Positions 5,233-40,159 of a DNA stretch of 64,000 bases are shown here, one piece after another (position 1 is the first letter of the stretch; every line of letters starts with the position of its first letter). Under the pieces are notes generated by a model that worked only from the letters and a program-made list of their open reading frames with translations, did not search any database and was not told where the DNA came from. Where the stretch lies: IMG/VR virus record IMGVR_UViG_3300044712_002165, positions 1 through 64,000 of that record. One strand, written 5' to 3'. The stretch comes from a virus. A program made the translations under genes and the position numbers.

Positions 5233-5274
5233 ACCCGGATAGCCTTGGAGGTGCAATTCCTCTCTCGCCCACCA
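5191..5274 (+). tRNA. tRNA-Leu(UAG), non-canonical fold
   Basis: Acceptor gggcgag/ctcgccc, GGTT/AGCC extra helix, CCA. Confidence 0.82.
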
Positions 5275-5292
5275 TTTTCGGGTATCTAATCC

Positions 5293-5940
5293 GTGCGTGT
5301 CATCACCTGCGTCAGCGTTGCGCTCACAACGCACTGCAACCTGGCCTGTCCAGACTGTTGCTGCGATATTCCGCGGCGCGGCGGAGGCACTCCGGTCGCC
5401 TGGGAGTATCTGGAGCTGGCAGCACAGCACTTGCGCGGCACGCCGAGGATCAATCTGACCGGTGGCGAGCCGACAACGCATCCACACTTCGATGAGTGGA
5501 GCCCGCGTTTTCGCGATCTGTTTCAGTGCTCGAAGCTGACCGTGGAGACGAATGGAATTTTGTCTACGAAACACGTGGACGCTCTGAGGTGCTACGATAC
5601 TGTATACGTTACGCACTACACGCCCGACACGTTCAAGGACGCGCCTTCGTACTACAGGGTGGACAACTCCAGGCAAATTGAAATTCTGCGCGAGGCGCTC
5701 GGCGACCGGCTCTACGTCAAGCCGTACATGTACCACCAGCCCAGACGCGAGCAGCGTGGTACCAAGCCTTGCGCCGCGGCCTTTTCGGAGACGGTGGCCT
5801 TCTGGAACGGCAAGCTGTTTCCGTGCTGCCTGGCTGACGGTGTTCCGAATGCGGTCGGCATTCCCTTGACGGACGATTGGCGAACGCGCATACACGAAGT
5901 GCAGCCTCCATGCGCGACCTGTTTTTTCGCAGTTCCATAG
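5293..5940 (+). CDS. Radical SAM protein with C-terminal Cys-rich (SPASM-like) region
   Basis: CNLACPDC, TGGEP, ETNG, PCC...CATC. Confidence 0.9.
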   Translation: MRVITCVSVALTTHCNLACPDCCCDIPRRGGGTPVAWEYLELAAQHLRGTPRINLTGGEPTTHPHFDEWSPRFRDLFQCSKLTVETNGILSTKHVDALRCYDTVYVTHYTPDTFKDAPSYYRVDNSRQIEILREALGDRLYVKPYMYHQPRREQRGTKPCAAAFSETVAFWNGKLFPCCLADGVPNAVGIPLTDDWRTRIHEVQPPCATCFFAVP

Positions 5941-6023
5941 CCCGTGTGGGTTGACAGCGAATACAAGAGCACTGGCACTTAAAAGCCGGACCTTTGCAGG
6001 TGGAAGTCCTGCCACGGGCACCA
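5940..6023 (+). tRNA. tRNA-Leu(UAA), non-canonical fold
   Basis: Acceptor gcccgtg/cacgggc, GGGT/ACCT extra helix, anticodon loop has 8 nt or a bulged A, CCA. Confidence 0.75.
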
Positions 6024-6027
6024 ATTT

Positions 6028-6111
6028 CGCGGCGTGGTTTACCCGGAATAGCAGACGGGGCGGTTTCAAAAACCGACAGCCTTGGAGGTGCAATTCCTCT
6101 CGCCGCGACCA
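6028..6111 (+). tRNA. tRNA-Leu(CAA), non-canonical fold
   Basis: Acceptor cgcggcg/cgccgcg, GGTT/AGCC extra helix, CCA. Confidence 0.85.
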
Positions 6112-6114
6112 TTT

Positions 6115-6241
6115 CGGCCGGAGCACATCGGACGAGGCTTAGGCTCGTGTGCGGGTGGAGATACCGAGGCGGTCCCCAGAGACCGATAGTGATCCCGAAG
6201 CGAATCGAGGTGGGAAGCGTGCGGATGACCAGCTCCGGTCG
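6115..6241 (+). ncRNA. Putative multi-stem ncRNA
   Basis: Closing stem cggccgggagc/gctccggtcg with internal hairpins gcaca/tgtgc, cggtc/gaccg, tccc/ggga. Confidence 0.5.
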
Positions 6242-6254
6242 TCTAGTTACAGGC

Positions 6255-6821
6255 ATGGACGCTGTTCGCATCGTAAACGTTTTGCTGGAGATGCCGCAGA
6301 TCACGCGTAAAGGAAAGACTGTATACGCGGATGATCAGCCGTTGCGCGACGTTCCAGACGTTGCGGTCAAGGGCAACATCGTCATCATCCGTCAGCCAAC
6401 AGCGAACGCCCTGGTTCCCGAGGGTTTCACGCTCGTCTACTTCATGGACAGCGACGAGTCGGCTGCGGCCATGAAAGCCGGCAAGCTGCCGTACAAGTTC
6501 GTGCACAACCGTCCGCGCTTCTCGTTCGACGCGTCGCCGATCACCGATGTCTGGAAGGGCCAGTTTGACAAAGGCCAGAAGGCCATCCTGGGCGTGCTCC
6601 AGGGCACGAGCGACGAGAACGAGATTTACGTAGACAAAATGACCGTTCGGCCGGCGTACAAGCGCAACACGATCATGCGCCGCTTGGTGGGAGCGCTCCA
6701 GGCGTCGTTCCCAAACGCAAAGGTCAACTTCTCCGGCCCGACCAAGGAAGGCGCGGCGTTCATCCGCGGCACCACCGGCAGCGATTGGGTGCCGGCGCAC
6801 GGCGAAACGCCGGAGTTCTGA
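6255..6821 (+). CDS. GNAT-like acetyltransferase with N-terminal LLE tag
   Basis: TAGTTA-N5-ATG; MDAVRIVNVLLE; IYVDKMTVRPAYKRNTI and TKEGAAF resemble GNAT motifs A and B. Confidence 0.65.
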   Translation: MDAVRIVNVLLEMPQITRKGKTVYADDQPLRDVPDVAVKGNIVIIRQPTANALVPEGFTLVYFMDSDESAAAMKAGKLPYKFVHNRPRFSFDASPITDVWKGQFDKGQKAILGVLQGTSDENEIYVDKMTVRPAYKRNTIMRRLVGALQASFPNAKVNFSGPTKEGAAFIRGTTGSDWVPAHGETPEF

Positions 6822-6885
6822 ATGTTTACAGAAGGCTGTTGACAATCGGCCTTCGAGTCGGCACAGTGCGCACGTTCTTTTTGGA

Positions 6886-6960
6886 CGCAGGGTGGAGCAG
6901 CGGTAGCTCGTCAGGCTCATAACCTGGAGGTCGGCGGTTCGATCCCGTCCCCTGCACCCA
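6886..6960 (+). tRNA. Initiator tRNA-fMet(CAU)
   Basis: C1:A72 mismatch, GAGC/GCTC D stem, anticodon CAT, CCA. Confidence 0.88.
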
Positions 6961-6963
6961 TTT

Positions 6964-7152
6964 CCGGCGAAAGCCGGGTGGAGGTTCGGCTGAAACCGAA
7001 CTTCCAGGCGGGCGGCTTCGTTGCAGCCCGCCACCTTTTCTCCGCGCCAGCGCGGGGTAGCGCCGAAAGGCACTGGAAGCGCAAGCAGCTGGATGGTGGA
7101 CGGCGTAGTCGCAAGACTGGCCCCTTCGCCCCTTGGGGAAACCTGAGGGGCG
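6964..7152 (+). ncRNA. Putative structured RNA rich in GNRA-capped hairpins
   Basis: ccggc-GAAA-gccgg, gcc-GAAA-ggc, agtc-GCAA-gact, cgccccttggg-GAAA-cctgaggggcg; no credible ORF. Confidence 0.5.
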
Positions 7153-7174
7153 CTGTTTTCTGATCTTTGATATT

Positions 7175-7595
7175 GGGGGTGTACTGGTATCGATCTGTGT
7201 AAACAGATCGGTTGCTGCGTGCCGAGGATGATCGTTGGCCTCGTAAAATCTGCGATCAAAACATCAACTGCCAACAGGCTGAGTGATGAGTCGGTCCTCG
7301 CGGAAGCGGAAGCCATCCTGGCCAACCCGGATGCTTTCCTCCCCGCGGAGGTCGAAGCCGTGGCCTAACAAGGTCACCCGGTTGCCTGTAGACGCCTGCT
7401 AAGCAGGGTCAACCGTCATCAGCAGGATCGTGGCGCTTCGAGCAGTGTCGAAGCTCCGGCAGCTGGGTCAAGCTGCACCACAGGCTCTGCGCGATTTTGC
7501 TGATTCAGCGCAGCCTGGACTCAAATCAGCTATGCACGTAGACGCGGCCGGTTGTAGACGCAGAGACGCGGGTTCAACTCCCGCCACCTCCACCA
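7175..7595 (+). ncRNA. ssrA: tmRNA
   Basis: 5' GGGGGTG with G3:U70, 3' T arm plus CACCTCCACCA; tag frame 7270-7368 ANRLSDESVLAEAEAILANPDAFLPAEVEAVA*. Confidence 0.92.
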
Positions 7596-7599
7596 TTTT

Positions 7600-8069
7600 C
7601 GCGCCGCCAAGCTCCGGCTAACCGTGAGGGCTCCGTTGATCCGGTGTACGACAGTTGAAAGATGCACCGGGGAGTAGAGCCACTGTCGGCGGCGCGATTC
7701 AATTTGGTGAGCGCAGCGTCATGACCTGCGCGTTCTCGGCAAAATCCCGTCTGCATAGTGCGTACGAACGAAAGCGGCCAAGCCTGTAGAAGGCGTCAGG
7801 GTGGATATTCGTCGGTGAAAATCCGAAGGCCGAGACACCTTTTTCGTAAACAATACCGCAAAGGTTAGTGGGTTCAGCAGCATCCCGCGACGGTGGAACC
7901 CTTAGGCTGCCAGGCAGAGGTGCGGTGACTCTGCCAACGATTTTGGGGACTACGGACGCGCACCATGGTCAAAAAGCGCGTCCCCGCTGAAAGCTTCGCC
8001 TGACCAGCGTTGTGATGTAGGCTAAACCCCACGCCTGGACGATGAGTGCACGTAGTCGTCCAGTGCCCC
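7600..8069 (+). ncRNA. Four tandem unannotated structured RNA modules (7600-7696, 7706-7839, 7845-7939, 7944-8069)
   Basis: Strong stems (cgcgccgcc/ggcggcgcg; tctcggc/gccgaga; ggcagag/ctctgcc; ggacgcgc/gcgcgtcc), separated by T runs; no credible ORF. Confidence 0.55.
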
Positions 8070-8073
8070 TTTC

Positions 8074-8254
8074 ACGAGCCGAAGGCTAGGGTTATCATAA
8101 CGGTCCTAAGGTAGCGACGCTCCGGTGACGGACTTAGCGAGGACGACGAGTCTGCTGTAGCCGTAGATAAATTGTCCGTTTCGATGACGGTCATCGCATG
8201 AATCCGCGACCCGTACAGAAGACCGAAAAACATCCTATCCGCACACTTGCTCGT
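8074..8254 (+). ncRNA. Y RNA with a 23S rRNA-like insert
   Basis: Ro60-binding bulged helix ACGAG-CCGA...CACTTG-CTCGT, second stem ggctaggg/tcctatcc, TTATCAT motif shared with the neighbouring Y RNA. Confidence 0.75.
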
Positions 8255-8264
8255 TTACAGTTTT

Positions 8265-8408
8265 GTTGGTGGTCCGAACGTGTTGCTTATCATCGGTACC
8301 GCGGGTCGCAGGTTCAAATCCTGCCGTCTCGGCTTTCGATCCGAGGCGTAGCTCAGCCTGGTTAGAGCAGCGGTCAGCATTTGCGACGCGATCCACTTGA
8401 TCACCGAC
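8265..8408 (+). ncRNA. yrlA: YrlA-type Y RNA with permuted tRNA-like domain
   Basis: GGTCCGA...CTTGATC helix; T arm, then closed acceptor hairpin, then D arm; directly upstream of Ro60. Confidence 0.88.
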
Positions 8409-8531
8409 TTCCTTTTCGTCCCCCTGGGTCGAAAGCGTTCGAGCCGCTCCCTTGCCTGAACGCGATACCCAAGAACGGCCGATGAGCACGGCCGGCGAAA
8501 GCGTTTGGGGAGTGCGCGTGCTCGTCCACAG

Positions 8532-10214
8532 ATGGCAAAGATCAGCACTGCCTCGTTTCACCGTCGGCGTTCCATTCCCGTCACTGAGCCCATCCCAGGG
8601 CGCAAGGAAATGGTGCCGAACTCCACTGGTGGCTACGCCTGGAAGGTCACCGAGTGGGATCAGCTCGACCGCTTCCTGATCCTGGGCGTCACTGGCGGCA
8701 CCTACTACATCGGCGAGCGCAAGCTCACCGATGACAACGCGGCTGCCGTCAAGGCGTGCATCCAGCTGGATGCCGGCCGTGTTGTTGACCGCGTCGTCGA
8801 GGTCTCCGTCGGAGGTCTCGCGCTCCGCAACGATCCGGCCATCTTCGCGCTCGCGCTCGTCGCTGCCAGCAACGACGCCGAGGCCAAGGCCAAGGTCGCT
8901 GCTGCGCTCCCGCAGGTCTGCCGCACCGGTACGCACCTGCTGCACTACGGCGATTACGTCAACGCTTTGCGCGGCTGGGGTCCCTCGGTCCGCAAGAGCG
9001 TCGCGTCCTGGTACACCGGCCGTGAGGCCGACAACCTGGCGTTCCAGGTCGGCAAGTATCAGAGCCGCGACAACTGGTCGCATCGCGACTTGCTGCGTCT
9101 CACGCACCCGAAGGCTCCGAACGAGGCCACCGACGCGGTTTTCCGGTGGATCGTTGGCGGCATGGAGGCTGTCAACGGCCGGACCGTGAAGCGCAAGGAC
9201 GGCAGCTCGGTCAAGTACCCGTCGCTGCGCGAGCACCTGCCTCGGTTCCTGGCTGCCATGGAAGAGGTCAAGGCAGCCAAGAAGGCCAAGGATGTGGTTC
9301 GGCTCATCACCGAGCACAACCTGCCTCGCGAGGTCATTCCGACCGAGTGGCTCAATGAGGTCGAGGTCTGGGAGGCGCTTCTCCAGAAGATGCCGCTCAC
9401 GGCCATGATCCGCAACCTGGGCAAGATGACCTCCATCGGCCTGGTTCGCCCGCTCTCCGCGGGCGCACGGCTCGTCAAGGAGCGCCTTGGCAACAAGGAC
9501 TACCTCCGGAAGAGCCGCATTCACCCAATCAGCGTCCTCGTGGCTGCGCGGACCTACGCGCAGGGCAAGGGCGTCAAGGGCAGCCTGTCCTGGAGCCCTG
9601 TGCCCGCCGTCCAGACGGCGCTGGATGAGGCGTTCTACGCCACGTTCGGCAACGTCCGGAAGATCGGCAAGCCGGTTCTGATCGCGCTCGACGTGTCCGG
9701 TTCCATGGGTTCGTCCGCGGCCGGTACGGTCCTGCGCGCCTGCGAGGCGACGGCAGCAATGTCGCTCGTCTGGCTGAACACGGAGCCCGAGGTTCACGTG
9801 TTCGGTTTCGGAAGTACGTTCCGCGAACTCGGCATCCGCAAGGGCATGACCCTGGAGGCTGCGTGCCAGAAGGCCGTGCAGGCGAACTTCGGTTCGACCA
9901 ACATCGGTCTGGCGGTTGAGTACGCGGAGCAGCACAAGATCGATGTCGGCGGCTTCATCGTCATGACCGACAACGAGGGCAACACGGGTGAGCAGCCCGC
10001 AAAGGTGATGGAGCGCTACCGCAAGGCCCGCGTTCCTGACGCTCGCCTCGTGATGGCTGCCACGTCAGCCAATCAGTATCGGGCAAGCGACCCGAACGAC
10101 AAGTGGAGCCTGGATGTGGCGGGTTTCGATCCGTCAGTCCCCACGGTCGTCAACAACTTCATCCGCGGCAGCGCGGGCGAGGAAACTGTTGACGAGCCCG
10201 AGTCGGAGGAGTAA
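8532..10214 (+). CDS. rsr: Ro60/TROVE-domain RNA-binding protein with vWA domain
   Basis: NSTGGY, LDRFLILG..GGTYY, KYQSR..WSHRDLLRL.H, MPLTAMIRNLG, DVSGSM, TDNE, GFD. Confidence 0.95.
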   Translation: MAKISTASFHRRRSIPVTEPIPGRKEMVPNSTGGYAWKVTEWDQLDRFLILGVTGGTYYIGERKLTDDNAAAVKACIQLDAGRVVDRVVEVSVGGLALRNDPAIFALALVAASNDAEAKAKVAAALPQVCRTGTHLLHYGDYVNALRGWGPSVRKSVASWYTGREADNLAFQVGKYQSRDNWSHRDLLRLTHPKAPNEATDAVFRWIVGGMEAVNGRTVKRKDGSSVKYPSLREHLPRFLAAMEEVKAAKKAKDVVRLITEHNLPREVIPTEWLNEVEVWEALLQKMPLTAMIRNLGKMTSIGLVRPLSAGARLVKERLGNKDYLRKSRIHPISVLVAARTYAQGKGVKGSLSWSPVPAVQTALDEAFYATFGNVRKIGKPVLIALDVSGSMGSSAAGTVLRACEATAAMSLVWLNTEPEVHVFGFGSTFRELGIRKGMTLEAACQKAVQANFGSTNIGLAVEYAEQHKIDVGGFIVMTDNEGNTGEQPAKVMERYRKARVPDARLVMAATSANQYRASDPNDKWSLDVAGFDPSVPTVVNNFIRGSAGEETVDEPESEE

Positions 10215-10219
10215 TTCAC

Positions 10220-10249
10220 GGGCGGCTCTTCGGAGCCGCTCTTTTGTTT
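10220..10249 (+). terminator. Intrinsic terminator
   Basis: gggcggctc-TTCG-gagccgctc followed by TTTTGTTT. Confidence 0.8.
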
Positions 10250-10251
10250 AC

Positions 10252-10341
10252 GGAAGTGTGACCGAGCCCAGTAAGGTACCGACTTGCTAAGTCGAGGTCA
10301 GGGTAAAACCTGCGCAGGAGCGAAGCCTGCCACTTCCGCCA
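10252..10341 (+). tRNA. tRNA-Ser(GCU)
   Basis: Long variable arm, G73, anticodon GCT, CCA. Confidence 0.9.
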
Positions 10342-10359
10342 CTTTCCAGAAGCGAAGTA

Positions 10360-10902
10360 ATGTCAAAGCGTCTACCAAAACGCGATTCCACGATTATTCT
10401 GCAACTGGCCATGTCTGCTTACGAGGCGCGCCTGTTGCGCGACGAGCTATGTGGTCAGCTTTCTGAAATGGATTTGGACGACGCTACAGCTGACGTTTTT
10501 GAGGACCACGAAACCGTTCTAACCACGTCTTTCGACGATTGGGTCAACATTCGCCAAAACGACGTATACAGAAAAAGGCTGAGGCCCGTGCTAGAGAAAA
10601 CGGTGAAGGCACTGCGCGTGTCTCTCGGCCTTTCACCTGAGATTCCAACGGTCAAACTGCCGATGGCGTTGGCTGATCGTGACGGGCATACCTTGCAGGA
10701 ATTTAGGCTTTACCTCGACTTGCACAAAAAGGGTCTGCTTGATAATTCAACTAGGCTCAAAGGTCTCGCAAAGTTTGAAAAATGCGCTAGAACGCTGAAC
10801 GCGACTTATATCGCAAAGGATACGTCGTGGTATTACGACGGAACTGTATACGCCACGTTTGACGCGCTTTGCGAAAGGCTCATTAGTGATTTTCGGGAAT
10901 AG
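10360..10902 (+). CDS. Hypothetical protein
   Basis: 180 aa ORF filling the gap between two tRNAs; lower GC. Confidence 0.7.
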   Translation: MSKRLPKRDSTIILQLAMSAYEARLLRDELCGQLSEMDLDDATADVFEDHETVLTTSFDDWVNIRQNDVYRKRLRPVLEKTVKALRVSLGLSPEIPTVKLPMALADRDGHTLQEFRLYLDLHKKGLLDNSTRLKGLAKFEKCARTLNATYIAKDTSWYYDGTVYATFDALCERLISDFRE

Positions 10903-10903
10903 C

Positions 10904-10980
10904 GGGCTCGTAGCTTAGCGATTAAAAGCAGTGGACTCATAATCCTCAGACCGTGGGTTTGAATCCCACCGAGCCCACCA
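10904..10980 (+). tRNA. tRNA(CAU), probably Ile2 (lysidine) or elongator Met
   Basis: Acceptor gggctcg/cgagccc, anticodon CAT, ACCA. Confidence 0.85.
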
Positions 10981-10998
10981 CGTTCTCCTGAAGCAGAC

Positions 10999-11454
10999 AT
11001 GACGTACGCACGCAGCATCAATTCCAAGCAGGCGTTCGAGAGCATTACCGCCAGCGGCGTCCTTTCTGCGCGCCGCCTGGAGACGTACCAAGGGCTCTAC
11101 GAGCACGGCCCCATGACGGCCCGCGAACTCGACAAACTTCTTGGTCGAACCGGCCTCTGGAAACGCTGCTCGGAGCTGGAAAGCATGGGCTTGGTGCGCG
11201 CTGTCGAAACCCGCGAGTGCAGCGTGACTGGACAGGCCGCAACCGTCTGGGACGTGACGGACGTGGCCAAAGCCCAGCCGTACAAAAAGCCCGAGGTGCA
11301 GAAGCGCAAGCTGTACGTTGTCCTCAACCAGCACGGGACTGGTGCTGCCTCGTTCAATCGCCAGGACATCCTCGACTACAAGGAGGCGACGACGGAGGAC
11401 GAAGTTCTGACCATGGACACCATTGACGTGCCGCCTGACTTTTGCTCGAAATAG
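10999..11454 (+). CDS. Winged-helix DNA-binding protein
   Basis: GPMTAREL...KRCSELESMGLV. Confidence 0.7.
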   Translation: MTYARSINSKQAFESITASGVLSARRLETYQGLYEHGPMTARELDKLLGRTGLWKRCSELESMGLVRAVETRECSVTGQAATVWDVTDVAKAQPYKKPEVQKRKLYVVLNQHGTGAASFNRQDILDYKEATTEDEVLTMDTIDVPPDFCSK

Positions 11455-11458
11455 CTTG

Positions 11459-11517
11459 TGCCGCGCAGGAGCCCGCAAGGGCAAGGGTTGATTACCCTTT
11501 TCATCACTTGCGCGGCA
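11459..11517 (+). ncRNA. Small three-stem RNA structure
   Basis: tgccgcgcagg/cttgcgcggca enclosing gccc-GCAA-gggc and aagggt/accctt. Confidence 0.4.
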
Positions 11518-11528
11518 TTTTCGTTTTC

Positions 11529-11603
11529 GGCCTCGTAGCTCAACATCAGAGCAGCGCGCTTTTAACGCGTTGGTTGGGGGTGAGAATCCCTCCGAGGTCA
11601 CCA
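11529..11603 (+). tRNA. tRNA-Lys(UUU)
   Basis: Acceptor ggcctcg/cgaggtc, anticodon TTT, CCA. Confidence 0.88.
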
Positions 11604-11607
11604 GTTT

Positions 11608-11680
11608 AGCCCCGTAGCTCAATCAGTGGAGCGTCGGACTTTGATTCCGAATGTTGCTGGTGCAAGTCCAGCCGGGGCCG
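11608..11680 (+). tRNA. tRNA-Gln(UUG), CCA not encoded
   Basis: 1:72 mismatch, anticodon TTG, G73. Confidence 0.82.
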
Positions 11681-30672: not shown

Positions 30673-31725
30673 TTTTGTATACGGTTCAACGTGGATCACG
30701 TTGTCCGGGCGCTTGCCGTGCGCGAAAAGGTACAGGACGTAGCCGCCCCAGCCTGATCCGAGGTACTTCTTCGCGATGGCGTGCGGCATGTCTGGAATAG
30801 TATCCATGCCTTCCGCCAGCTGGCAGCGGTAAGACATGTCAATGGCATCTACGATGTGACCGATGCTGTTGTTGCGCACGCCTGTAAACGCTACTTCAGC
30901 GGCCTTCTCGATCAGCTTGAAGTTTCTGGGCTTGTTTACGAGTTGAGGCGTGGAGTGCGGCCTTCCTGTCCAGGCGATGCCCATGAGTCCGTTCAGAAAA
31001 CGTCCGCTTGTCTTCATCTCCAGGATCGGCTTTGACCCAGAATTCCAGACGCACAGGCCAGTCTCGTTGATGACGGCCGGGTCCTGCCAGCCGACACCCG
31101 CGTCGAGTTCGGACTGGAGCGCGTTTTGACCCAGGAGCAGGCGGTATGCGGCCGATCCGCCGAGCCCACCTCCCACTTCGTATGGCCAGTCGCTCAGGCT
31201 CACGAGAGGGCTGACAGCGCAGTTGACCACGTGCGCACCGTGAACAGCGAACTTCGGGACATCCAGCCAGCCGCCGGCAAAATCAACGCGCAACGGCACG
31301 CGTTCAGGAGCACGCATGTACCTGGCGATTTCGGTGCTGCTGATCTGAGCGAATCCGAGCGTCTTGGGCAGTTTGACGTACTGCGCCCCGATCTCGTCGC
31401 ACAAGGCGCGCTTTTCTTTCTCGTAAAGATCGTCTTCGGTCACGGCGAGAATGTCCGGGCGAAGAGCGAGGAACTGTGATTTGAAGTTGAGACCTTCCTC
31501 TTCGTCCCTTCCGACGACAACTTTGTCTACGACGCCGAGCGCTTGCAGGATGTGAACCCTGTGATCGACGTTTAGAGCTGGTCTACGGTGTTTGTGCGCA
31601 GCCAGGACGGTATCGGTTGGAACGCAGACGATCAGGAAATTGCCAAGGGCTTTGGCTGCGGTCAGGAACTCAACGTGACCGCCGTGTAGAATGTCGTAGC
31701 AGCCGGACACGAAGACTGTTTTCAT
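30664..31725 (-). CDS. Cytidylyltransferase-family domain fused to GHMP sugar-kinase-like domain
   Basis: SGCYDILHGGH...ISST; PLRVDFAGGWLD, GGLGGS, GWQD, GSGWGGY. Confidence 0.88.
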   Translation of the reverse strand: MKTVFVSGCYDILHGGHVEFLTAAKALGNFLIVCVPTDTVLAAHKHRRPALNVDHRVHILQALGVVDKVVVGRDEEEGLNFKSQFLALRPDILAVTEDDLYEKEKRALCDEIGAQYVKLPKTLGFAQISSTEIARYMRAPERVPLRVDFAGGWLDVPKFAVHGAHVVNCAVSPLVSLSDWPYEVGGGLGGSAAYRLLLGQNALQSELDAGVGWQDPAVINETGLCVWNSGSKPILEMKTSGRFLNGLMGIAWTGRPHSTPQLVNKPRNFKLIEKAAEVAFTGVRNNSIGHIVDAIDMSYRCQLAEGMDTIPDMPHAIAKKYLGSGWGGYVLYLFAHGKRPDNVIHVEPYTKSL

Positions 31726-31740
31726 GTTCTGTAGAACCGT

Positions 31741-32640
31741 ATGAAGATCGCTATCGCCGTGCTGACCTACCGTCGGTCCGAGACCGTCCAGACCATGCTG
31801 CGCGGCCTTGGAGAGCACTGTTCTCAGTACCCAATCGCTGTTTTTGAGGACTGCGGACAGCGCGATGATACCTCACGTGTGCTCGAAAAAGGGCGTGAAA
31901 GCCATTTTCGGCCGGAGTACCTGGCCTACGAGTACAAGGCGGCAGAGGGCGCTAACTTTCCGTTTACAAAAGTGTTCATGGGCGAGCGCAACCTCGGCGT
32001 CGCTGGCAACTCCAACCGTGCAATCCACTGGTTCATGACGGAGACCGATGCCGATTACCTGTGCCTCTGCAACGACGATCTCCACGTCCTGGGCGATTTC
32101 GCCAAATTCTACGCCGAGGCGTCGAAGGCTCTCGGCGTCGAGCACTTCTGCTTCTGCGATTTCACCCACCATCCGTCGTACAAGTGGACGACGTACAACG
32201 TGCGCGGGTATCCGGTGAAGTTCATGCCCAGGTTCACCGGCATCATGCTCATGTTTACAAGACCGCTGCTGGAACGCGTCGGCTATTTCGACGCTCAGTT
32301 CACGCAGTTTGGTGAGGAGCACTGCGACATGACCATTCGGTGCCGGTTTGCCGGCGGGATCAAACTCGAAGGCCGCGACATGAACTGTCTCGACATCGAG
32401 CACCAGCTTTTGAAGCACCAGGAGTGCGGGACAAGCGTGACCGGTCACGACCGTCAACGTGCCGACCAGGAGGCCAGTGCGATCATGCGCCAGTGTTCCC
32501 AGGACTACGGTTGGCGGCACTACCACCGCCCGTACCGGCTGATTCTGCCCAAGATGGCGGGCGGCTACAGCGGTGGCGGCATCTCGGTGGCCAACCTCCT
32601 GGACTGCGGCTACAAACTGGTCGCCGACCTCGCCGGGTAA
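31741..32640 (+). CDS. Glycosyltransferase family 2
   Basis: IAVLTY.R, EDCG, NLGVAGN.N, NDD, VGYFD..F..GEEH.D. Confidence 0.88.
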   Translation: MKIAIAVLTYRRSETVQTMLRGLGEHCSQYPIAVFEDCGQRDDTSRVLEKGRESHFRPEYLAYEYKAAEGANFPFTKVFMGERNLGVAGNSNRAIHWFMTETDADYLCLCNDDLHVLGDFAKFYAEASKALGVEHFCFCDFTHHPSYKWTTYNVRGYPVKFMPRFTGIMLMFTRPLLERVGYFDAQFTQFGEEHCDMTIRCRFAGGIKLEGRDMNCLDIEHQLLKHQECGTSVTGHDRQRADQEASAIMRQCSQDYGWRHYHRPYRLILPKMAGGYSGGGISVANLLDCGYKLVADLAG

Positions 32641-35981: not shown

Positions 35982-37445
35982 ATGGTTATTCTGCACGAAA
36001 CAGGACGGCCGATGCTGGCGAGTGAAGGCGGTCACATCAACCGCTTCACCGACATCCTCGAATGGGGTTACCGCCTGGCTGAGACGCCGGTCGGCACCCC
36101 CGAAAAGAACCCCCGCGGTCTCTGGGAAGCCAGGGGCTGGAAGGAGTTCGTCCAACACATGCCCGAGCACAAGCGCCCCATCGCGGCGATCATGCTCGAA
36201 AACTGCCGTTCCCGCTGGGGCCGGCTGGACGAAGTTACCCGGACCACAAGTCTCGGTACCTTTGATAAGTGGATCTTCCCGGTGATTGCGAACATGTCCG
36301 AGAACGACGTGATCGACCAGCTCGTCGCCATCCAGCCGATGGCCGGTCCGGTCAGTCAGATCGTTTACATGGACATCGTCACCGGACGCCGGAAGGGCCG
36401 CACGCCCGCTGGCGCGCCGATGTGGCGTGCGCTCCAGGGCGCGGTTGACCGCGACGACGACGCCGACGAGCTGATCCAGGACGAGACCGGCACCTCGAAC
36501 GGTTCCGGCGTGATCGTGCTGGAATGGACTCCGATTCGCGCCGGCACGCTGTCCGGCACCGTCGGCTCCATCTCGGTGGCCGACGACGGCAACGGCAACA
36601 TCATCAACGTGGCGTCCAACGCTACCGTCGGTACCGTCGTGTACCAGGGCACGGGCGCGGGCACGATCACCATCGCGTCGCAGGCGAACGCGAGCTACAC
36701 GCTCACCTACGCCTACAACTCGGAAGGCAACCTGGCGATCCAGGACTACGAGATGAAGCTCTCATCGACGCCGGTTACGGCGAAGGTGATGAAGCTGAAG
36801 ACCCTCTGGTCCGAGGAAGCCGACCAGAACCTCCAGGCGATGTACAACATCAAGGCCGAGAGCGTCCTGCTCAACGCCCTGACCAACGCGCTCCAGTACC
36901 AGAAGCACCGCCAGGTGATCTTCGATCTGCGCGCCAAGGCTGACGCCGGCTTCGTCGTCTGGGACGCCATCGCTCCGGCGAACGTCAACTACCAGACGCA
37001 CAAGTTCTCGATCATCGACGCGTTCGAGACCGCCTCGAACTTCATCTTCGGTGCCACGAACATGGTCGCCGGCAACTGGGTGCTCCTGGGTCTCCAGGCT
37101 GCCACCGTGGTGGCCACGCTGCCTCAGTTCGTGCCGAAGAACTCCCGGGTCCAGATGCAGGGCATCACCTACATCGGTGATCTTGGAAATAAGAAAATCT
37201 TCTCGGACCCGCACTATCCGAACAACGAGTTCCTCGTCGGCCACAAGGGCGACCAGTTCCTCACGACCGGGTACGTTCTGGCGGAATATCAAAAATTGTA
37301 TACAACGCCCGACGTTGTTCTCCCGGACTTCATCCACCAGCGCGGCTTCGCCACGAGCTTCGCTCGGAAGATGATCAACTCGAAGATGTTCTGCCGCGGA
37401 TTGGTTCAGAACTCTCCGACGGCGTTCGGCCAGACCATCGGCTAA
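35982..37445 (+). CDS. Major capsid protein (T4 gp23-like)
   Basis: QPMAGP, KLK..WS.EA.Q.L.A, GN, LVGHKG...GYVLA.Y; directly after protease. Confidence 0.95.
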   Translation: MVILHETGRPMLASEGGHINRFTDILEWGYRLAETPVGTPEKNPRGLWEARGWKEFVQHMPEHKRPIAAIMLENCRSRWGRLDEVTRTTSLGTFDKWIFPVIANMSENDVIDQLVAIQPMAGPVSQIVYMDIVTGRRKGRTPAGAPMWRALQGAVDRDDDADELIQDETGTSNGSGVIVLEWTPIRAGTLSGTVGSISVADDGNGNIINVASNATVGTVVYQGTGAGTITIASQANASYTLTYAYNSEGNLAIQDYEMKLSSTPVTAKVMKLKTLWSEEADQNLQAMYNIKAESVLLNALTNALQYQKHRQVIFDLRAKADAGFVVWDAIAPANVNYQTHKFSIIDAFETASNFIFGATNMVAGNWVLLGLQAATVVATLPQFVPKNSRVQMQGITYIGDLGNKKIFSDPHYPNNEFLVGHKGDQFLTTGYVLAEYQKLYTTPDVVLPDFIHQRGFATSFARKMINSKMFCRGLVQNSPTAFGQTIG

Positions 37446-37463: not shown

Positions 37464-37500
37464 AAAAACCCGCAGCCTCACGGCTGCGGGTTTTTTGTTT
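37464..37500. terminator. Bidirectional intrinsic terminator
   Basis: AAAAA-cccgcagcc/ggctgcggg-TTTTTT between the capsid gene and the convergent repeat array. Confidence 0.85.
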
Positions 37501-37502
37501 AC

Positions 37503-38228
37503 GTTCCGGCCCTTCCTATCCTGTTCGGTCGTCTACCTTCCAATCCATGACTTTCCTTTCCTGCCTTTCCGTTCCTTTCCGCAACTTTCCTCTGCGCACC
37601 GCTCCACTTCGTTCCATTCCGGCCCTTCCCCTCCTGTCCATTCAGCTCCCTAGCACTTCTAACCGTTCCTCTCCTGCCCTTCCGTAGCCTTCCCTGCCGG
37701 TCCGATCCTTTCCTTTCCCATCAGCTCCTTTCCGAGCCGTTCCTGCCTTTCCATTAGCGTCCACACCATTCCTGCCGGTCCGGTCCCATCCCTTCCTATC
37801 CATTCCGCTTCTCGCCATTCCAATCCTCTCCTGCCGCTCCACTCCTCTGACCTCCGGTCCGTTTCTATCCCCGCCGCTCCTTTCCTGCCGGTTCATTCCC
37901 CTCCATGCCACTTTGCGACGCTCCACTCCTATCGTCTCCTGCCGGTCCGTTCCCCTCCATGCCGTTCCTCACCGTTTCACTCCTTGCCTCTCCTGCCGGT
38001 CCGATCCTTGCCATTCCAGTCCGCTCCTTTTCGTGCCTTGCCATTCCTGCCACTCCGATCCGATTCCTTCCACTGCGTTCCGATTCACTCCCTGCCGTTC
38101 CTCTCCTGCCCTTCCTCAACGGTCCCATCCACTCCACTTCTCTCCACACCATTCCTCACGGCTCCATTCCTGCCTTTCCATTAGCGTCCGATCCTATGCA
38201 ATCCACAACTGTCCAATCCTGCCGTTCC
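37503..38228 (-). repeat. Phased pentamer array: 13 units of GGC(A/C)-(GGA-NN)5-13, putative guide-RNA array
   Basis: On + strand, 132 in-phase NN-TCC-type pentamers broken only by 4-nt TGCC/GGCC spacers; modal unit 54 nt. Confidence 0.9.
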
Positions 38229-38232
38229 TTGT

Positions 38233-38694
38233 TTACGTTTTGGTACACCGTTTTCTCACTCTATCCACGGTGTCCCAAATTTCATGAAGGTGCGTGAAGA
38301 ACGCGTATTTTGCCTTCAGCCTGTCAAGCTCGCGGTAGAGCTGCTCAAGCAGCACTGTACTGTGCTGCGCGCTACTCATGACCTCGCCCACGGGTCTGTA
38401 CCCTCCGCCTTGTTCGCGGTCCGTGGTGAGGCTGATCCAGGCAGGAGCCGGGCTGCCGTTTGACAACGTTATTTCGATCTTACCGACGAGGTCTCTCGCC
38501 TCGACGATCCAGTATTTTTGAGCAGCTTCTTGAACATCCCAGGTAAAGTGCCTGTGGCATTCACTCTGTGGATGCGTGCGGGCAAACTCAACGATGTCGG
38601 CTAGGTGAAGTTTGCCGTCTTTGGAAGCAGCGCGGATTTTTTCGATTTCCCGCGCTGCCTTTTTGAGCCGACGTGGTTCAAAAGCGTTGTCCAT
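38233..38694 (-). CDS. Accessory protein of the RAMP-like operon
   Basis: IVEFAR.HP.S.CH.HFTWD..AA..YW..AR.LV motif; overlaps the upstream stop; its stop lies 4 nt before the array. Confidence 0.8.
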   Translation of the reverse strand: MDNAFEPRRLKKAAREIEKIRAASKDGKLHLADIVEFARTHPQSECHRHFTWDVQEAAQKYWIVEARDLVGKIEITLSNGSPAPAWISLTTDREQGGGYRPVGEVMSSAQHSTVLLEQLYRELDRLKAKYAFFTHLHEIWDTVDRVRKRCTKT

Positions 38695-39406
38695 TGGGAA
38701 GCAGAACTTCAAAGGAGCCCCATCCGCAGCCGTTGGATTGGCGTGAGTTCATGCGCCCTTCACCGAGGCCGTTTTGAAGACCCATGCGCCACAGCAAATT
38801 CGTCACGTCGTTGTGCGTAAACTGGTCCTGGTCCCATCCGAGAGTGACGACGGCTTCCCATCCGGGTTTCCACAGAGGGCGCGACTTGATGTCGAAAACT
38901 CCCGTAGCCAACCGGCCAGGGCCAAGGTGCTGTTCGGGCTCACCTTTGGTAATCCGAACGAGCGGGGTATTGTCGAACATGTCGTAGCCATCGGCAATGC
39001 ACCAGATCGACATTTTGGCCAGCGTCATTTTGTAATCAACCAGACGGCAAACAGAGATGATGCCGCAACGGATTGCAGTGGCGTTAAAGCCGTTCCAACC
39101 TTCGTTGGACACGTAGAGGGCGTCCTTCCAGAGCTGGTCAAAGTCCTTGGGAGCGCGTGAACCTTTCTTGGTCTTGGAAGTCGTTCCTTCGCGCTGTCTG
39201 CCCATGATTGCCTCCTGGGACTTGGTGCTGAACCGCTGAATGACCAAAGGCGTGGTGCCTCGAATCGTGAACTGTGCGCGCACCATGTTCGGCGCATTGA
39301 CCTGCACCTCTTTGGTGACGACTCGACTGGTTTCGTCCGGTGCGGGCGATCCGTTCGTCGCGGCTGATGTTCCGTTGTTGCGTGTCGGTTTGAGCGTTGC
39401 TTTCAT
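38678..39406 (-). CDS. Cas7/RAMP-like RNA-binding protein
   Basis: Strand-G-TTPL start, ATAIRCGI helix, SRP..W, Gly-rich end G..NGLGEGR...GWGSFEV; alternative start 39433. Confidence 0.7.
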   Translation of the reverse strand: MKATLKPTRNNGTSAATNGSPAPDETSRVVTKEVQVNAPNMVRAQFTIRGTTPLVIQRFSTKSQEAIMGRQREGTTSKTKKGSRAPKDFDQLWKDALYVSNEGWNGFNATAIRCGIISVCRLVDYKMTLAKMSIWCIADGYDMFDNTPLVRITKGEPEQHLGPGRLATGVFDIKSRPLWKPGWEAVVTLGWDQDQFTHNDVTNLLWRMGLQNGLGEGRMNSRQSNGCGWGSFEVLLPNGQRF

Positions 39407-39514
39407 TGTGTTGTACTCTGGGGTACGGCGCATACATTTTGTAAACGTTTACATTTTGTCAAACAGTTTTCTGCAATTGACGCATGCGCTGCTGAACCGT
39501 AACCTTCCGACAGG

Positions 39515-40159
39515 GTGGAAACCAAAGCTCAGCAGATCGCGGAGATGCTTTTGGAGCACAGGCGCTACGAAGCGTTACGTCCGGCTACGCCGCTTACCGC
39601 AGCGCAGCTCCTGGAGATGCCGCAGCACTACCCGGGCAACGTCATCTATCAGTCCAAGCTCAAATTCGTGCCGATCTCGCGCCGGAATTTCGGCAGCCAC
39701 ATCGTGATCGGCCAGGACGGTTTCTACACCTACGTCGTCGATCTTTCCCAGACGACGGGTTTCGTTTTCGTCAGCGCGGACATCGAGTCGGAGGCGCTCG
39801 AATTCGTCCCTGTCATGCAACTTCAGCTGCGCAAGTCGTCGCTTGACGGACTGCGCCAAGCCTTTCGCCTGCGTATACAGGAAGAGCATGCGCGCAAGGG
39901 CATCGCGACGACGTGGTACGTGTTGTTTGCTCAGACGTTCGGCGGTATCGTTTCCGACTTTGAGCACCTGGAAGGTGGCAAGAATTTGTGGCGTGCTTTT
40001 GTAGACAAAGCTGCGTACCGCGGACTGACGATTCACGCTGTTGACACTTTGACAGGTGAATCAGTTCCAGTAGGCCCGGAAACGTCGGATGATGCGATCT
40101 GGTCAACGGATCAGAGTAAGAGGAGTACCGTTTTGGTACTTCGCAGGTCAGCGCGTTAG
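39515..40159 (+). CDS. GNAT-like protein with N-terminal LLE tag
   Basis: AQQIAEMLLE; IQEEHARKGIAT..Y, IVSD....GG..LW. Confidence 0.65.
   Translation: METKAQQIAEMLLEHRRYEALRPATPLTAAQLLEMPQHYPGNVIYQSKLKFVPISRRNFGSHIVIGQDGFYTYVVDLSQTTGFVFVSADIESEALEFVPVMQLQLRKSSLDGLRQAFRLRIQEEHARKGIATTWYVLFAQTFGGIVSDFEHLEGGKNLWRAFVDKAAYRGLTIHAVDTLTGESVPVGPETSDDAIWSTDQSKRSTVLVLRRSAR

What the first reader, a model, noticed from the sequence alone, without database searches (positions are those of the whole stretch)
37503..39433. Cas7/RAMP-like gene plus a phased GGA-NN pentamer array: candidate non-CRISPR RNA-guided system
Seen: a minus-strand operon (38678-39406, 38233-38694) runs straight into a 725-nt array and ends at the terminator at 37464-37500. 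On the transcribed strand each unit is GGC(A/C) followed by GGA-NN pentamers. In + strand order the 13 units have 10,11,10,13,5,11,10,10,10,10,11,12,9 pentamers (132 total). The 5-nt phase never slips except at the 4-nt delimiter. The triplet is mostly conserved while NN varies, and each unit has its own string (e.g. + strand 37944: gg gt cc at gt tc gt ac tt tc; 38052: ac ga ga ct ac gt ga ac ct gt tc). Established: Cas7/RAMP proteins end in a Gly-rich loop and polymerise on guide RNA with a fixed step; this protein ends GLGEGR...GWGSF. Inference: each ~54-nt unit is a guide, one subunit binds each GGA, and the exposed NN pairs spell a ~20-nt, possibly gapped, target. No cas1/2 or nuclease is adjacent, so silencing of rival phage or host genes is plausible. 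From memory this resembles recently reported phage RAMP-plus-pentamer systems (VIPR, GGY/NN); a GGA core would be a variant, and this link needs checking.
Basis: partly seen in the sequence, partly recalled or inferred. Interest (0 to 1): 0.96.

Follow-up and report, generated by a model that had tools for sequence, protein, structure and literature searches.

The report
Phage VIPR system, GGA-type guides
An uncultured soil jumbo phage carries a VIPR system, a CRISPR-like RNA-guided DNA silencer first described in 2026, whose 13 guides use GGA instead of the usual GGC/GGT repeat core, and one guide appears aimed at the capsid gene of a sibling phage that lacks the system.

Summary
Between 39406 and 37507 the minus strand carries a Cas7-like gene, a small partner gene and a 717-nt array. 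The array has 13 units of length 5n+4, each GGCA/GGCC followed by in-phase GGA-NN pentamers (132 in all), and it ends at a terminator.

This is a VIPR system (Vipr + vap + "staggered" vrRNA array; bioRxiv 10.64898/2026.04.26.720920 and .720927), so the kind is already known.
- The protein folds as a Cas7/Csm3-type RAMP.
- It aligns over its full length to the published SUSP1 Vipr (hhalign 95%).
- It belongs to a family of more than 400 proteins. In 113 of 140 loci examined (139 related loci plus the window), pentamer arrays with GGCA delimiters lie beside the vipr gene, nearly all on its strand.

The core is what is unusual. Position 3 is A in 82% of pentamers and never G, whereas 99 of the 113 arrays use C and/or T. 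The two strongest GGA systems alone share V119 and N212. These residues align with the pocket that holds the pyrimidine in SUSP1 Vipr.

Guide 13 matches a capsid-gene motif, in frame and skipping the wobble base. It matches 9/10 dinucleotides in a sibling phage that lacks the 2-kb cassette, and 8/10 in the phage's own gene (Ser TCG instead of AGC). Targets of the other guides were not found, and no RNA data exist.

This scan has met GGA-type VIPR arrays before on other DNA. Verdict: new variant of a known kind.

The parts
39440..39462 (-). Putative promoter/operator region of the cassette. It holds a perfect -35-like TTGACA (39462-39457) and a 14-bp perfect palindrome TGTAAACGTTTACA (39453-39440) just upstream of the vipr start.
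   Evidence: Read directly from the sequence. The palindrome is unique in the window. The consensus scan found no full sigma-70 promoter, so promoter function is inferred only.
38678..39406 (-). vipr: Cas7-like RAMP protein, 242 aa from the ATG at 39406 (251 aa from the ATG at 39433). Inferred to be the subunit that coats the guide RNA, one protomer per pentamer.
   Evidence: No Pfam or NCBIfam hit; PHROG 4652, function unknown. AF2 model pLDDT 80.7. All top Foldseek PDB hits are Csm3/Cas7/Cmr subunits, E 2e-6 to 5e-4. hhalign of a 137-sequence profile against SUSP1 Vipr gives probability 95.3%, E 6e-9, full length. 415 homologues.
38233..38694 (-). vap-like accessory gene, 153 aa, overlapping the end of vipr by 17 nt. 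Predicted winged-helix-like N-terminal domain plus a C-terminal helical hairpin.
   Evidence: PHROG 15946, function unknown. A homologue lies on the vipr strand in 81 of 139 related loci, downstream of vipr in 78. AF2 model pLDDT 94. Weak matches to forkhead/winged-helix DNA-binding domains: Foldseek E about 1, VIA Z 5.6-6.4. No BLAST similarity to SUSP1 vap1.
37507..38223 (-). Staggered vrRNA array: 13 units (29-69 nt, modal 54 nt) of GGCA/GGCC plus GGA-NN pentamers. The last four bases, 37511-37507, are the GGCC that opens the 3' stub.
   Evidence: The RNA is 76% purine and folds less well than its shuffles, z +2.05. No Rfam family matches the array.
37512..37565 (-). Unit 13, the last full guide. 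Its NN string is AA AA AT TT AG GA CC CA TA AG and spells K K I F S/R D P H Y S/R.
37464..37500 (.). Bidirectional intrinsic terminator shared by the capsid gene (+) and the VIPR operon (-).
   Evidence: GC-rich hairpin flanked by T-runs on both strands. The hairpin is conserved in the cassette-less sibling L226.
37191..37219 (+). Site in the phage's own major capsid gene (codons 404-413, KKIFSDPHYP) that matches guide 13 at 8 of 10 dinucleotides. It is in frame, with the skipped base on the wobble position. The mismatches are the Ser codon (TCG where the guide has AG) and the last dinucleotide.
   Evidence: Only 6 of 300 NN shuffles give any guide a match of 0.8 or better on the contig.
35982..37445 (+). 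Major capsid protein gene, convergent with the cassette. It shows the phage context and is the homologue of the proposed target.
   Evidence: tblastn hits to annotated major capsid proteins. 60 relatives with 60-90% identity in IMG/VR.
37497..37504 (-). ACGTAAAC copy at the 3' end of the array. A second copy lies at 38231-38238 between vap and the array, and both orientations occur in the palindrome at 39440-39453. These GTTTAC repeats bracket the stretch that is missing in the sibling phage.

Best explanation
The stretch 37464-39462 is a 2-kb VIPR cassette inserted between the capsid gene and the next gene of a rhizosphere jumbo-type phage.

Proposed working, by homology with the characterised SUSP1 system:
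1. The operon vipr-vap-array is transcribed from the minus strand as one RNA.
2. The RNA is cut at or near each GGCA into about 13 guides of roughly 9-13 pentamers.
3. Vipr protomers polymerise along each guide, one per pentamer. They hold the GGA core and expose the NN pair.
4. The filament binds double-stranded DNA that reads NN-x-NN-x..., with one base skipped per step, and blocks transcription.
5. The winged-helix-like Vap assists.

The system differs from the published ones in that its core is GGA, not GG-pyrimidine. I propose that this is real specificity, carried by a remodelled position-3 pocket (V119 and N212 in place of A and V), not decay.

Its purpose is competition between related phages. 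Guide 13 reads the capsid-gene codons KKIFSDPHY of sibling phages that lack the cassette. The carrier's own capsid gene is spared because its Ser codon is TCG rather than AGC.

Shown here: the anatomy, the fold, the homology, the family-wide linkage of gene and array, the covariation, and the match to the sibling gene. Inferred: transcription, processing, binding, silencing, the role of Vap, and that two mismatched dinucleotides protect the phage's own gene.

The confidence of 0.8 is for 'functional VIPR system of the staggered kind with a GGA core'. The two sub-claims, the remodelled pocket and the capsid target, stand at about 0.6 each.
For: Anatomy.

Literature definition of VIPR, staggered arrays and the 1-nt skip code.

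RAMP fold: every leading Foldseek hit is a Cas7-type subunit.

Homology to SUSP1 Vipr. I located its locus and confirmed its GGT-NN arrays. hhalign gives probability 95.3%, E 6e-9 over residues 41-242 against 1-195. R218 aligns with R179, E216 with D177, and residue 57 (Q here, more often N/A/H in the family) with H17.

Family linkage. 113 of 140 loci examined (139 related loci plus the window) have pentamer arrays, nearly all on the vipr strand. 662 unit boundaries read H|GGCA|GG, and units are 5n+4 nt long. vap lies downstream in 78 loci.

GGA is constrained. Position 3 is A 108, C 13, T 11, G 0.

Covariation. Among 137 family proteins, V119 occurs only in the window (77% A) and L020 (87% A). 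N212 occurs only in those two and in L008 (24% A). All 66 C-type systems have A119 and 65 of 66 have V212. N212 aligns with SUSP1 C173. V119 lies one helical turn from the residues aligned with E71/M72. These are the elements that form the pyrimidine pocket in the cryo-EM structure. The window and L020 are not sisters in the tree.

Target. Guide 13 matches the phage's own capsid gene at 8/10 dinucleotides, in frame. A metagenome scan for its first 9 NN returned 19 hits. One is the same site in L226, whose capsid protein is 98.6% identical, giving 9/10 with only the terminal NN mismatched. L226 has 61 nt where the window has the 2035-bp cassette. Two near-complete relatives (199 and 211 kb) have no Vipr.

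The array RNA is unstructured.
Against: - No RNA data. No run listed as RNA holds the stretch, so expression, processing sites and RNP formation are untested.
- In SUSP1, GGY>GGA abolished silencing and the pocket excludes purines. GGA function here therefore rests on covariation in only two or three lineages, and tree support for their independence is weak (0.4-0.8).
- Twelve of 13 guides have no match above shuffled controls. I searched the contig, 139 VIPR loci, 70 capsid-region loci, two whole relative genomes and five further IMG/VR or metagenome pattern scans.
- The guide-13 match is only moderately significant (about 0.02 before counting frame and the sibling's codon), and I found it after looking at many things.
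- About 50 other relatives have Ala (GCN) at the key codon and match only 14-16 of 20 bases.
- Wobble differences are dense around the site. The TCG/AGC difference may therefore come from recombination rather than escape.
- W178 of SUSP1 aligns with G217. An aromatic residue (W229) sits instead in an 8-residue insertion.
- The skip rule could not be validated independently for this clade. An all-against-all test gave only 16 matches of at least 0.85 under the 1-nt skip, against 7 under 0 or 2.
Confidence: 0.8

Rival explanations
1. It is a decaying VIPR locus. The array once used GGC and has drifted to GGA, so it is now inert. The guide-13 match is then chance.
For: GGY>GGA kills silencing in SUSP1. 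47 of the 132 pentamers are not exactly GGA. Twelve guides have no target.
Against: Drift would not give 82% A and 0% G at one position while NN stays random. Both ORFs are intact and under family-typical conservation. The phase is kept over 717 nt. The delimiter keeps its C (GGCA) while the cores use A, so the two signals are distinguished. GGA-specific residue changes recur in L020. Internal degeneracy is also reported for functional vrRNAs.
Confidence: 0.06
2. The system regulates the phage's own genes. Guide 13 damps or times expression of the adjacent capsid gene through an imperfect (8/10) match, rather than attacking rivals.
For: The best on-contig match of any guide lies 300 nt from the array, in the convergent capsid gene, at exactly the 80% NN-match level that the VIPR authors accept as a hit. 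Unit 1's best self-match spans the start codon of ORF 31741 (7/9).
Against: The sibling allele matches better (9/10) than the phage's own. The published systems show no self-targets, and disturbing NN pairing abolished silencing. Relatives manage without the cassette. The unit-1 match is within the shuffle range.
Confidence: 0.08
3. The RAMP filament targets RNA, like the Csm3/Cmr4 backbones it resembles most in structure, and not DNA.
For: The nearest solved structures are type III and type VII Cas7 subunits that bind target RNA. The guide-13 NN string reads in the same sense as the capsid mRNA, so the guide could only pair with the antisense strand. This is neutral for DNA targeting.
Against: Sequence homology is to Vipr, for which dsDNA binding, strand-independent silencing and cryo-EM ternary complexes with DNA are reported. 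A guide in the same sense as the mRNA cannot pair with that mRNA.
Confidence: 0.04
4. The tract is not a guide array at all. It would be a purine-rich satellite repeat, or a coding region for a Gly/Arg/Glu-rich protein.
For: Short minus-strand ORFs of 41-95 aa lie in the tract.
Against: A 5-nt period with a 4-nt slip every 50-60 nt cannot keep a reading frame, and no ORF spans more than a third of the tract. The same architecture accompanies vipr homologues in 113 loci across many phyla.
Confidence: 0.01

Closest known systems
VIPR systems with staggered vrRNA arrays (bioRxiv 10.64898/2026.04.26.720920, text and legend of fig. S18)
   Same: A lone Vipr RAMP plus one vap gene. There are no cas genes and no CRISPR array. 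The locus is phage-borne. The array consists of pentamer repeats whose units abut with a 1-nt overlap, which is the same thing as a 4-nt GGCA delimiter. Each unit has 9-13 repeats, and NN is hypervariable.
   Different: The core is GG-A rather than GG-Y. The preprint mentions 'a related consensus' and NNNGG, YNNNG and NNNNG repeats but not GGA. I could not tell from the text which of the seven types this clade belongs to. Staggered arrays were not among the architectures that the authors confirmed by sRNA-seq.
Type II VIPR of Escherichia phage SUSP1 (Vipr = AVU07_agp039; cryo-EM in bioRxiv 10.64898/2026.04.26.720927)
   Same: Homologous protein (hhalign 95%). The G-loop Arg and acidic residue are conserved. 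The operon order is vipr-vap-array. The proposed target logic is the same: codon positions 1-2 are read and the wobble base is skipped, against competing mobile elements.
   Different: SUSP1 vrRNAs are separate units of about 100 nt, each with a 3' tail and pseudoknot. Here there are no tails and only 4-nt delimiters. SUSP1 uses GGT/GGC, excludes purines at position 3, and loses function with GGA. Its vap1 is unrelated in sequence. SUSP1 targets a satellite; here the candidate target is a sibling phage's capsid gene.
Non-canonical VIPR repeat units found by genomic language model (bioRxiv 10.64898/2026.10.21.760802)
   Same: That work shows that Vipr-like folds come with 5-nt repeats other than GGY/NN, so core variation is an established idea.
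   Different: The motifs named there are GAC/NN, CAC/NN, WGT/NN and TGH/NN, in divergent clusters. GGA/NN is not named. Here GGA arises inside an otherwise GGC/GGT clade, together with identifiable residue changes.
Class 1 CRISPR backbone subunits (Cas7: Csm3, Cmr4, type VII Cas7)
   Same: RRM core, glycine-rich loop, thumb-like insertion, and polymerisation on a guide with a fixed step.
   Different: Sequence identity is only 7-16%. There is no CRISPR repeat-spacer array and no Cas5/Cas6/Cas10/Cas1-2. The step is 5 nt with three bases sequestered, instead of 6 nt with one base flipped. The code is noncontiguous.

Membership tests
VIPR system | Vipr protein with a RAMP fold (RRM core, G-loop, thumb) | tested here: met
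   AF2 model pLDDT 80.7. All top Foldseek PDB hits are Cas7-type subunits. The C-terminal G-rich loop GLGEGR...GCGWG is nearly invariant in the family.
VIPR system | Sequence homology to a published Vipr | tested here: met
   hhalign of the family profile against SUSP1 agp039: probability 95.3%, E 6e-9, full length; 79% with the smaller profile. The residue numbers named in the cryo-EM paper (H17, K33, E71, M72, R138, C173, D177, W178, R179) fit agp039. The paper's T175 is V175 in agp039.
VIPR system | Adjacent vrRNA of tandem pentamers with a conserved trinucleotide and hypervariable NN, about 9-16 repeats | tested here: met
   132 pentamers. Positions 1-3 carry 1.55, 0.98 and 1.14 bits; positions 4-5 carry 0.17 and 0.04 bits. 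Units have 9-13 repeats, and one has 5.
VIPR system | Conserved trinucleotide is GGY | tested here: not met
   Position 3 is A in 108/132, C in 13, T in 11. The preprint allows 'a related consensus', so this marks a variant rather than exclusion.
VIPR system | Minimal locus: vipr plus a vap gene, no cas genes or CRISPR array, usually in a virus | tested here: met
   Two-gene operon next to the capsid gene in an IMG/VR virus record. vap is conserved downstream in 78 related loci.
VIPR system | Targets follow the 1-nt skip rule (NN-x-NN), typically with x on the codon wobble position | tested here: inconclusive
   One guide of 13 fits: 9/10 dinucleotides, in frame, in a sibling's capsid gene. 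The others have no hit above controls. The family-wide test gives a weak excess for skip 1.
VIPR system | vrRNAs are expressed, processed and co-purify with Vipr; the RNP binds dsDNA and silences | not testable with these tools
   No RNA run holds the locus. This needs sRNA-seq, pull-down and a reporter assay.
VIPR staggered-array architecture | Successive vrRNAs overlap by 1 nt, so the end of one unit is the start of the next | tested here: met
   All 13 units are 5n+4 nt, which equals a 1-nt overlap of the pentamers GGCAG and GGANN. The same holds at 662 boundaries in the family.
VIPR type II (SUSP1-like) | Each vrRNA ends in an invariant structured 3' tail (pseudoknot) | tested here: not met
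   There is no invariant tail between units, and the array folds worse than its shuffles. SUSP1 tails are visible. The locus is therefore not filed as type II.
CRISPR-Cas class 1 | CRISPR repeat-spacer array and further cas genes (cas5/6/10/8, cas1-2) | tested here: not met
   No such ORFs or repeats lie within 5 kb. The Rfam scan found no CRISPR direct repeat.

The most novel reading that the evidence does not exclude
Within a GGC/GGT-using Vipr clade, a purine-accepting (GGA-specific) Vipr has arisen at least twice through the same two pocket substitutions, A119V on helix-1 and V212N at the start of the G-loop. This would give a natural, orthogonal protein-guide pair. The cassette is used in a fight between near-identical jumbo phages over the capsid gene. 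The only synonymous escape from a wobble-skipping guide is a switch between codon boxes for Ser, Arg or Leu, and such escapes may have left the unusually frequent serine box switches seen in these capsid genes.
Probability: 0.4. Interest if true: 0.7.

Novelty: new variant of a known kind. Interest (0 to 1): 0.5.

Why it matters
VIPR was published only in 2026, and its rules rest mainly on one E. coli phage system. In that system, position 3 of the repeat must be a pyrimidine.

A natural GGA system would add three things.
- Two candidate specificity residues that map onto the solved pocket. This gives a direct, cheap test of how the repeat core is read. It could also yield orthogonal Vipr/guide pairs for multiplexed silencing.
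- A concrete natural conflict: a carrier phage, a sibling without the cassette, and a matching capsid site with a recoded copy in the carrier itself.
- A testable signature of VIPR pressure on target genes, namely serine, arginine and leucine box switches.

If these do not hold, the locus is still a clean new example of a staggered VIPR array from soil.

Tried and rejected
Family and structure look-ups
- Pfam, NCBIfam and a PDB sequence search gave nothing for either protein.
- The word-indexed homologue search found only vap itself. Its relatives came from tblastn on the fetched loci.
- The vap fold search gave only middling winged-helix matches. Foldseek E was about 1 and VIA Z at most 6.8, and unrelated helical hits scored as high.

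Target searches with no result above shuffled controls
- All 13 guides at skips 0-3 against the phage's own contig plus 81 loci fetched by then, against 70 capsid-region loci of relatives, and at skip 1 against two whole relative genomes.
- Exact-pattern scans of IMG/VR for unit 10, unit 8, unit 13 in full and units 5 and 6 without their last NN.
- An exact-pattern scan of the metagenome collection for unit 8.
- The 9-NN scan of IMG/VR for unit 13 gave one hit, in a tape-measure-like gene of an AT-rich phage. This is at chance level.
- 18 of the 19 metagenome hits for the same pattern are also chance.

Earlier notes and other leads
There was no database hit, and unit 10 contains an internal GGACC-GGCAG boundary-like site, so it may be composite.
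- Guides of the different VIPR in L151 hit nothing.
- The all-against-all test of 244 family guides was too small to validate the skip rule.

Sequencing runs
- No RNA holder is listed for the stretch.
- Laid contigs showed no variants of the array. Run X1 laid nothing.

Other
- No sigma-70 consensus promoter was found.
- The only Rfam hit is a sub-threshold Thr-leader match on the terminator hairpin.
- The rest of contig L226 could not be fetched.
Full report
**1. What is in the sequence**

The minus strand between 39462 and 37464 carries, in order:
- a TTGACA box and a 14-bp palindrome;
- an ORF of 242 aa (38678-39406; 251 aa from the ATG at 39433);
- an overlapping ORF of 153 aa (38233-38694);
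- a 717-nt repeat tract (38223-37507);
- a GC-rich hairpin with T-runs on both sides (37464-37500).

These features are seen. The hairpin also ends the convergent major capsid gene, 35982-37445.

Parsed by phase, the tract is 13 units. Each opens with GGCA (GGCC once; the 3' stub also opens with GGCC) and continues with 9,12,11,10,10,10,10,11,5,13,10,11,10 pentamers, 132 in all. All units are 5n+4 nt long.

Pentamer positions 1-3 read G (123/132), G (106) and A (108; never G). Positions 4 and 5 carry 0.17 and 0.04 bits. An in-phase-GG detector finds this one tract in the 75-kb contig, and shuffled contigs give only stray short windows.

The RNA would be 76% purine and folds less well than its dinucleotide shuffles (z +2.05). 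It is therefore a single-stranded tape and not a structured RNA. No reading frame can survive the 5-nt period, so it is not coding.

Contigs from other rhizosphere runs reproduce parts of the array without a single difference.

**2. What it is**

Two April 2026 preprints describe VIPR (Viral Interference Programmable Repeat) systems. Their features are:
- a lone, minimal RAMP protein (Vipr) and one accessory gene (vap);
- vrRNAs made of 9-16 YNNGG repeats, in which GGY is held by the protein and NN pairs with double-stranded DNA;
- one target base skipped per step, usually the codon wobble base;
- loci mostly in phages, used against competing mobile elements.

The preprints list seven types and several array architectures. 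One is the 'staggered' array, in which successive vrRNAs overlap by 1 nt. A 1-nt overlap of pentamers is the same thing as the 4-nt delimiter seen here.

The protein has no Pfam or NCBIfam family. Its AlphaFold model (pLDDT 80.7) matches only Cas7-type subunits at the top of the PDB list: Csm3, Cmr and type VII Cas7, with E from 2e-6.

I located the published SUSP1 locus. In NC_028808, genes agp039 and agp038 are flanked by GGT-NN arrays with tails. The residue numbers named in the cryo-EM paper fit agp039, apart from T175, which is V175 in agp039. A profile of 137 relatives of the window's protein aligns to agp039 over its full length with 95% probability (E 6e-9; 79% with a 27-sequence profile).

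The family is large. There are 415 hits at E <= 0.001, more than 534 loci in IMG/VR, and 58 loci in genomes from many phyla. In 113 of the 140 loci examined (139 related loci plus the window) an in-phase GG pentamer array lies next to the gene, nearly always on its strand. The delimiter is almost invariant: 662 boundaries read H|GGCA|GG, and unit lengths peak at 49, 44 and 54 nt.

A homologue of the 153-aa protein lies on the vipr strand in 81 of the 139 related loci, downstream of vipr in 78. Its confident model (pLDDT 94) has an N-terminal domain that resembles winged-helix DNA binders only weakly (Z about 6), followed by a helical hairpin. This fits the preprint's statement that several vap families are predicted DNA binders, but it is not proof.

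The locus thus meets the defining features of VIPR that can be tested in silico, and it belongs to the staggered-array kind. It is not type II, because it lacks 3' tails.

**3. The GGA core**

Among the 113 arrays, position 3 falls into these classes:

| Class | Arrays |
|---|---|
| Mainly C | 68 |
| Mixed C/T | 28 |
| Mainly T | 3 |
| Mixed, including A | 10 |
| Mainly A | 4 |

The four A-dominant arrays are the window (77% of GG-initiated pentamers by this automated parse, against 82% of all 132 in the manual parse), L020 (87%), and two candidate-phyla MAG contigs (52-54%). GGA is therefore rare but not unique. This scan has also noted GGA-type arrays on other DNA.

In SUSP1 the change GGY>GGA abolished silencing. 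[quoted passage not shown]

In the family alignment, position 119 is Ala in 134 of 137 proteins and Val only in the window and L020. Position 212 is Val in 130 and Asn only in the window, L020 and L008. L008 has 24% A, among the higher shares outside the four A-dominant arrays. By the hhalign alignment, N212 corresponds to SUSP1 C173. V119 lies on helix-1 one turn after the residues aligned with E71/M72. R218 corresponds to R179.

The window and L020 are not sisters in a FastTree phylogeny, though support is weak. The window's nearest relatives use GGC.

The window keeps GGCA as its delimiter while its cores use A. The boundary signal and the core are therefore read as different things. I take this as good, though thin, evidence that GGA is a true specificity variant with a remodelled pocket and not decay. 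A later preprint reports other non-canonical cores (GAC, CAC, WGT, TGH) but does not name GGA.

**4. What it is aimed at**

Guide 13 (37565-37512) stood out. It gave 9 of 10 residues, KKIFSDPHY, in the adjacent capsid gene, against at most 6 for its own shuffles and at most 9 of 13 for shuffles of any guide. At the DNA level the site 37191-37219 matches 8 of 10 dinucleotides, in frame, with the skipped base on the wobble position. The mismatches are the Ser codon (TCG where the guide has AG) and the last dinucleotide. Only 6 of 300 shuffles of the array's NN give any guide a match this good on the contig.

About 50 relatives in IMG/VR have Ala at that codon and match 14-16 of 20 bases. A metagenome scan for the first nine NN returned 19 hits. 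Eighteen are unrelated AT-rich or non-coding sites, as expected by chance. One, L226, is the same capsid site in a phage whose capsid protein is 98.6% identical (92.3% at the DNA level), with Ser encoded AGC. That gives 9 of 10 dinucleotides.

The one remaining mismatch is in the terminal pentamer. The NN of terminal pentamers has low diversity across units (AG, CC or AA in 11 of 13), so it may belong to the boundary signal rather than the guide.

L226 is collinear with the window on both sides, but it has 61 nt where the window has 37503-39536, that is, the whole cassette. Copies of GTTTAC lie at the cassette's ends and between vap and the array.

Two near-complete relatives of 199 and 211 kb have no Vipr. 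Another relative (L151, capsid 89% identical) has a quite different VIPR in the same slot: its Vipr is 42% identical, its delimiters are GGCT and its cores are degenerate.

The picture is of an exchangeable weapon cassette downstream of the capsid gene. At least one guide reads the capsid gene of siblings that lack it, while the carrier's own copy is recoded. My confidence in this target is about 0.6. The statistics are moderate and post hoc. The dense wobble differences around the site could also mean that the TCG allele arrived by recombination.

The other twelve guides remain without targets.

**5. Mechanism, with its status**

- Shown: the anatomy, the fold, homology to a characterised Vipr, gene-array linkage across the family, a constrained GGA core with covarying pocket residues, and a 9/10 in-frame match in a cassette-less sibling.
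- Taken from the published SUSP1 work: one protomer per pentamer, sequestration of the three core bases, NN pairing with one skipped target base, and transcriptional silencing on either strand without a PAM.
- Inferred here: a single transcript running from the region of 39462 to the terminator, cutting at the GGCA boundaries, help from Vap, and protection of the phage's own gene by two mismatched dinucleotides.

**6. Novelty and score**

The kind is known from preprints of April to October 2026, and the staggered architecture is described. This locus is a new, clean member from a soil jumbo-type phage with a rare GGA core.

Beyond what I could find in the four preprints, it adds three things: the A119V/V212N covariation that maps to the solved pocket, a natural carrier/sibling pair with a capsid-gene target, and the observation on serine box switches (section 7). 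All three are testable with simple constructs. I rate it a new variant of a known kind, with interest 0.5.

**7. Seen in passing**

- Serine codons conserved between near-identical capsid genes of this phage group switch between the TCN and AGY boxes unusually often. The counts are 4 of 24 for the window against L226, 2 of 24 for a pair at 99.8% amino-acid identity, and 6 of 17 for another pair. One subgroup shows none. A wobble-skipping guide can be escaped synonymously only through Ser, Arg or Leu box switches, so this may be a footprint of VIPR pressure. Mosaic recombination is the obvious rival explanation.
- Units 5 and 6 are paralogues, and unit 9 repeats pieces of units 1 and 2. Arrays therefore grow by duplication and recombination.

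Noticed in passing
window 35982-37445 vs L226:709-2169 (minus); also L147/L149, L170/L172: Serine codon box switches (TCN<->AGY) are strikingly frequent between near-identical capsid genes. Window vs L226: 4 of 24 conserved Ser at 98.6% aa identity (codons 90, 191, 408, 459), plus 2 Arg and 3 Leu first-position synonymous changes. L147 vs L149: 2 of 24 at 99.8% identity. L170 vs L172: 6 of 17. Subgroup L173-L184 has 0-1. This may be a footprint of wobble-skipping guides, or it may reflect mosaic recombination.
   Followed up: partly
window 37503-39536; L226:587-647: The whole VIPR cassette (2035 bp) is an indel. The sibling contig L226 is collinear on both sides (98% identity over 39537-40122) and has 61 nt in its place. 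GTTTAC/ACGTAAAC copies sit at 37497-37504, 38231-38238 and in the palindrome 39440-39453, which suggests modular exchange at these repeats.
   Followed up: partly
L151:2540-4471 (minus): A relative with 89% identical capsid protein carries a different VIPR in the same slot downstream of the capsid gene. Its Vipr is only 42% identical, its delimiters are GGCT, and its cores are very degenerate (NGC-like). Two near-complete relatives (G001 199 kb, G002 211 kb) have no Vipr at all.
   Followed up: partly
window 37944-38051 (units 4-6), 37748-37776 (unit 9): Units 5 and 6 are paralogues: they share the same first, third, seventh, eighth and last NN, within a 54-nt tandem period at 74-77% identity. 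Unit 9 (5 pentamers) repeats the end of unit 1 and a middle piece of unit 2. Unit 10 contains an internal GGACC-GGCAG boundary-like site without a phase slip. Arrays seem to evolve by duplication and recombination.
   Followed up: no
window 31720-31745: The best self-match of unit 1 (7 of 9 dinucleotides under the 1-nt skip) spans the start codon of ORF 31741-32640. It lies within the range of the shuffled controls, so it is probably chance.
   Followed up: partly
139 related loci (L001-L140): Family-wide boundary grammar. The delimiter is G97 G99 C89 A85 (%). The base before it is never G in 662 boundaries. The next two bases are GG. Unit lengths are 5n+4, with modes at 49, 44 and 54 nt. The C of the delimiter is kept even where cores use A or T.
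   Followed up: yes
L001 (Cyanophage Cy-LDV1, BK059895.1) 3690-3886 and 4487-4630: A published temperate cyanophage of Cylindrospermopsis (now Raphidiopsis) has an unannotated VIPR. Gene g34 is a Vipr (45% identical) and g33 is the vap. GGC-NN staggered arrays lie on both sides of the vap, next to the cI/excisionase region.
   Followed up: partly
window 1-11680, 8074-8254: Earlier first-stage notes on this contig mention a large tRNA island with unusual tRNA-Leu folds and Y-RNA-like genes. I did not examine them.
   Followed up: no
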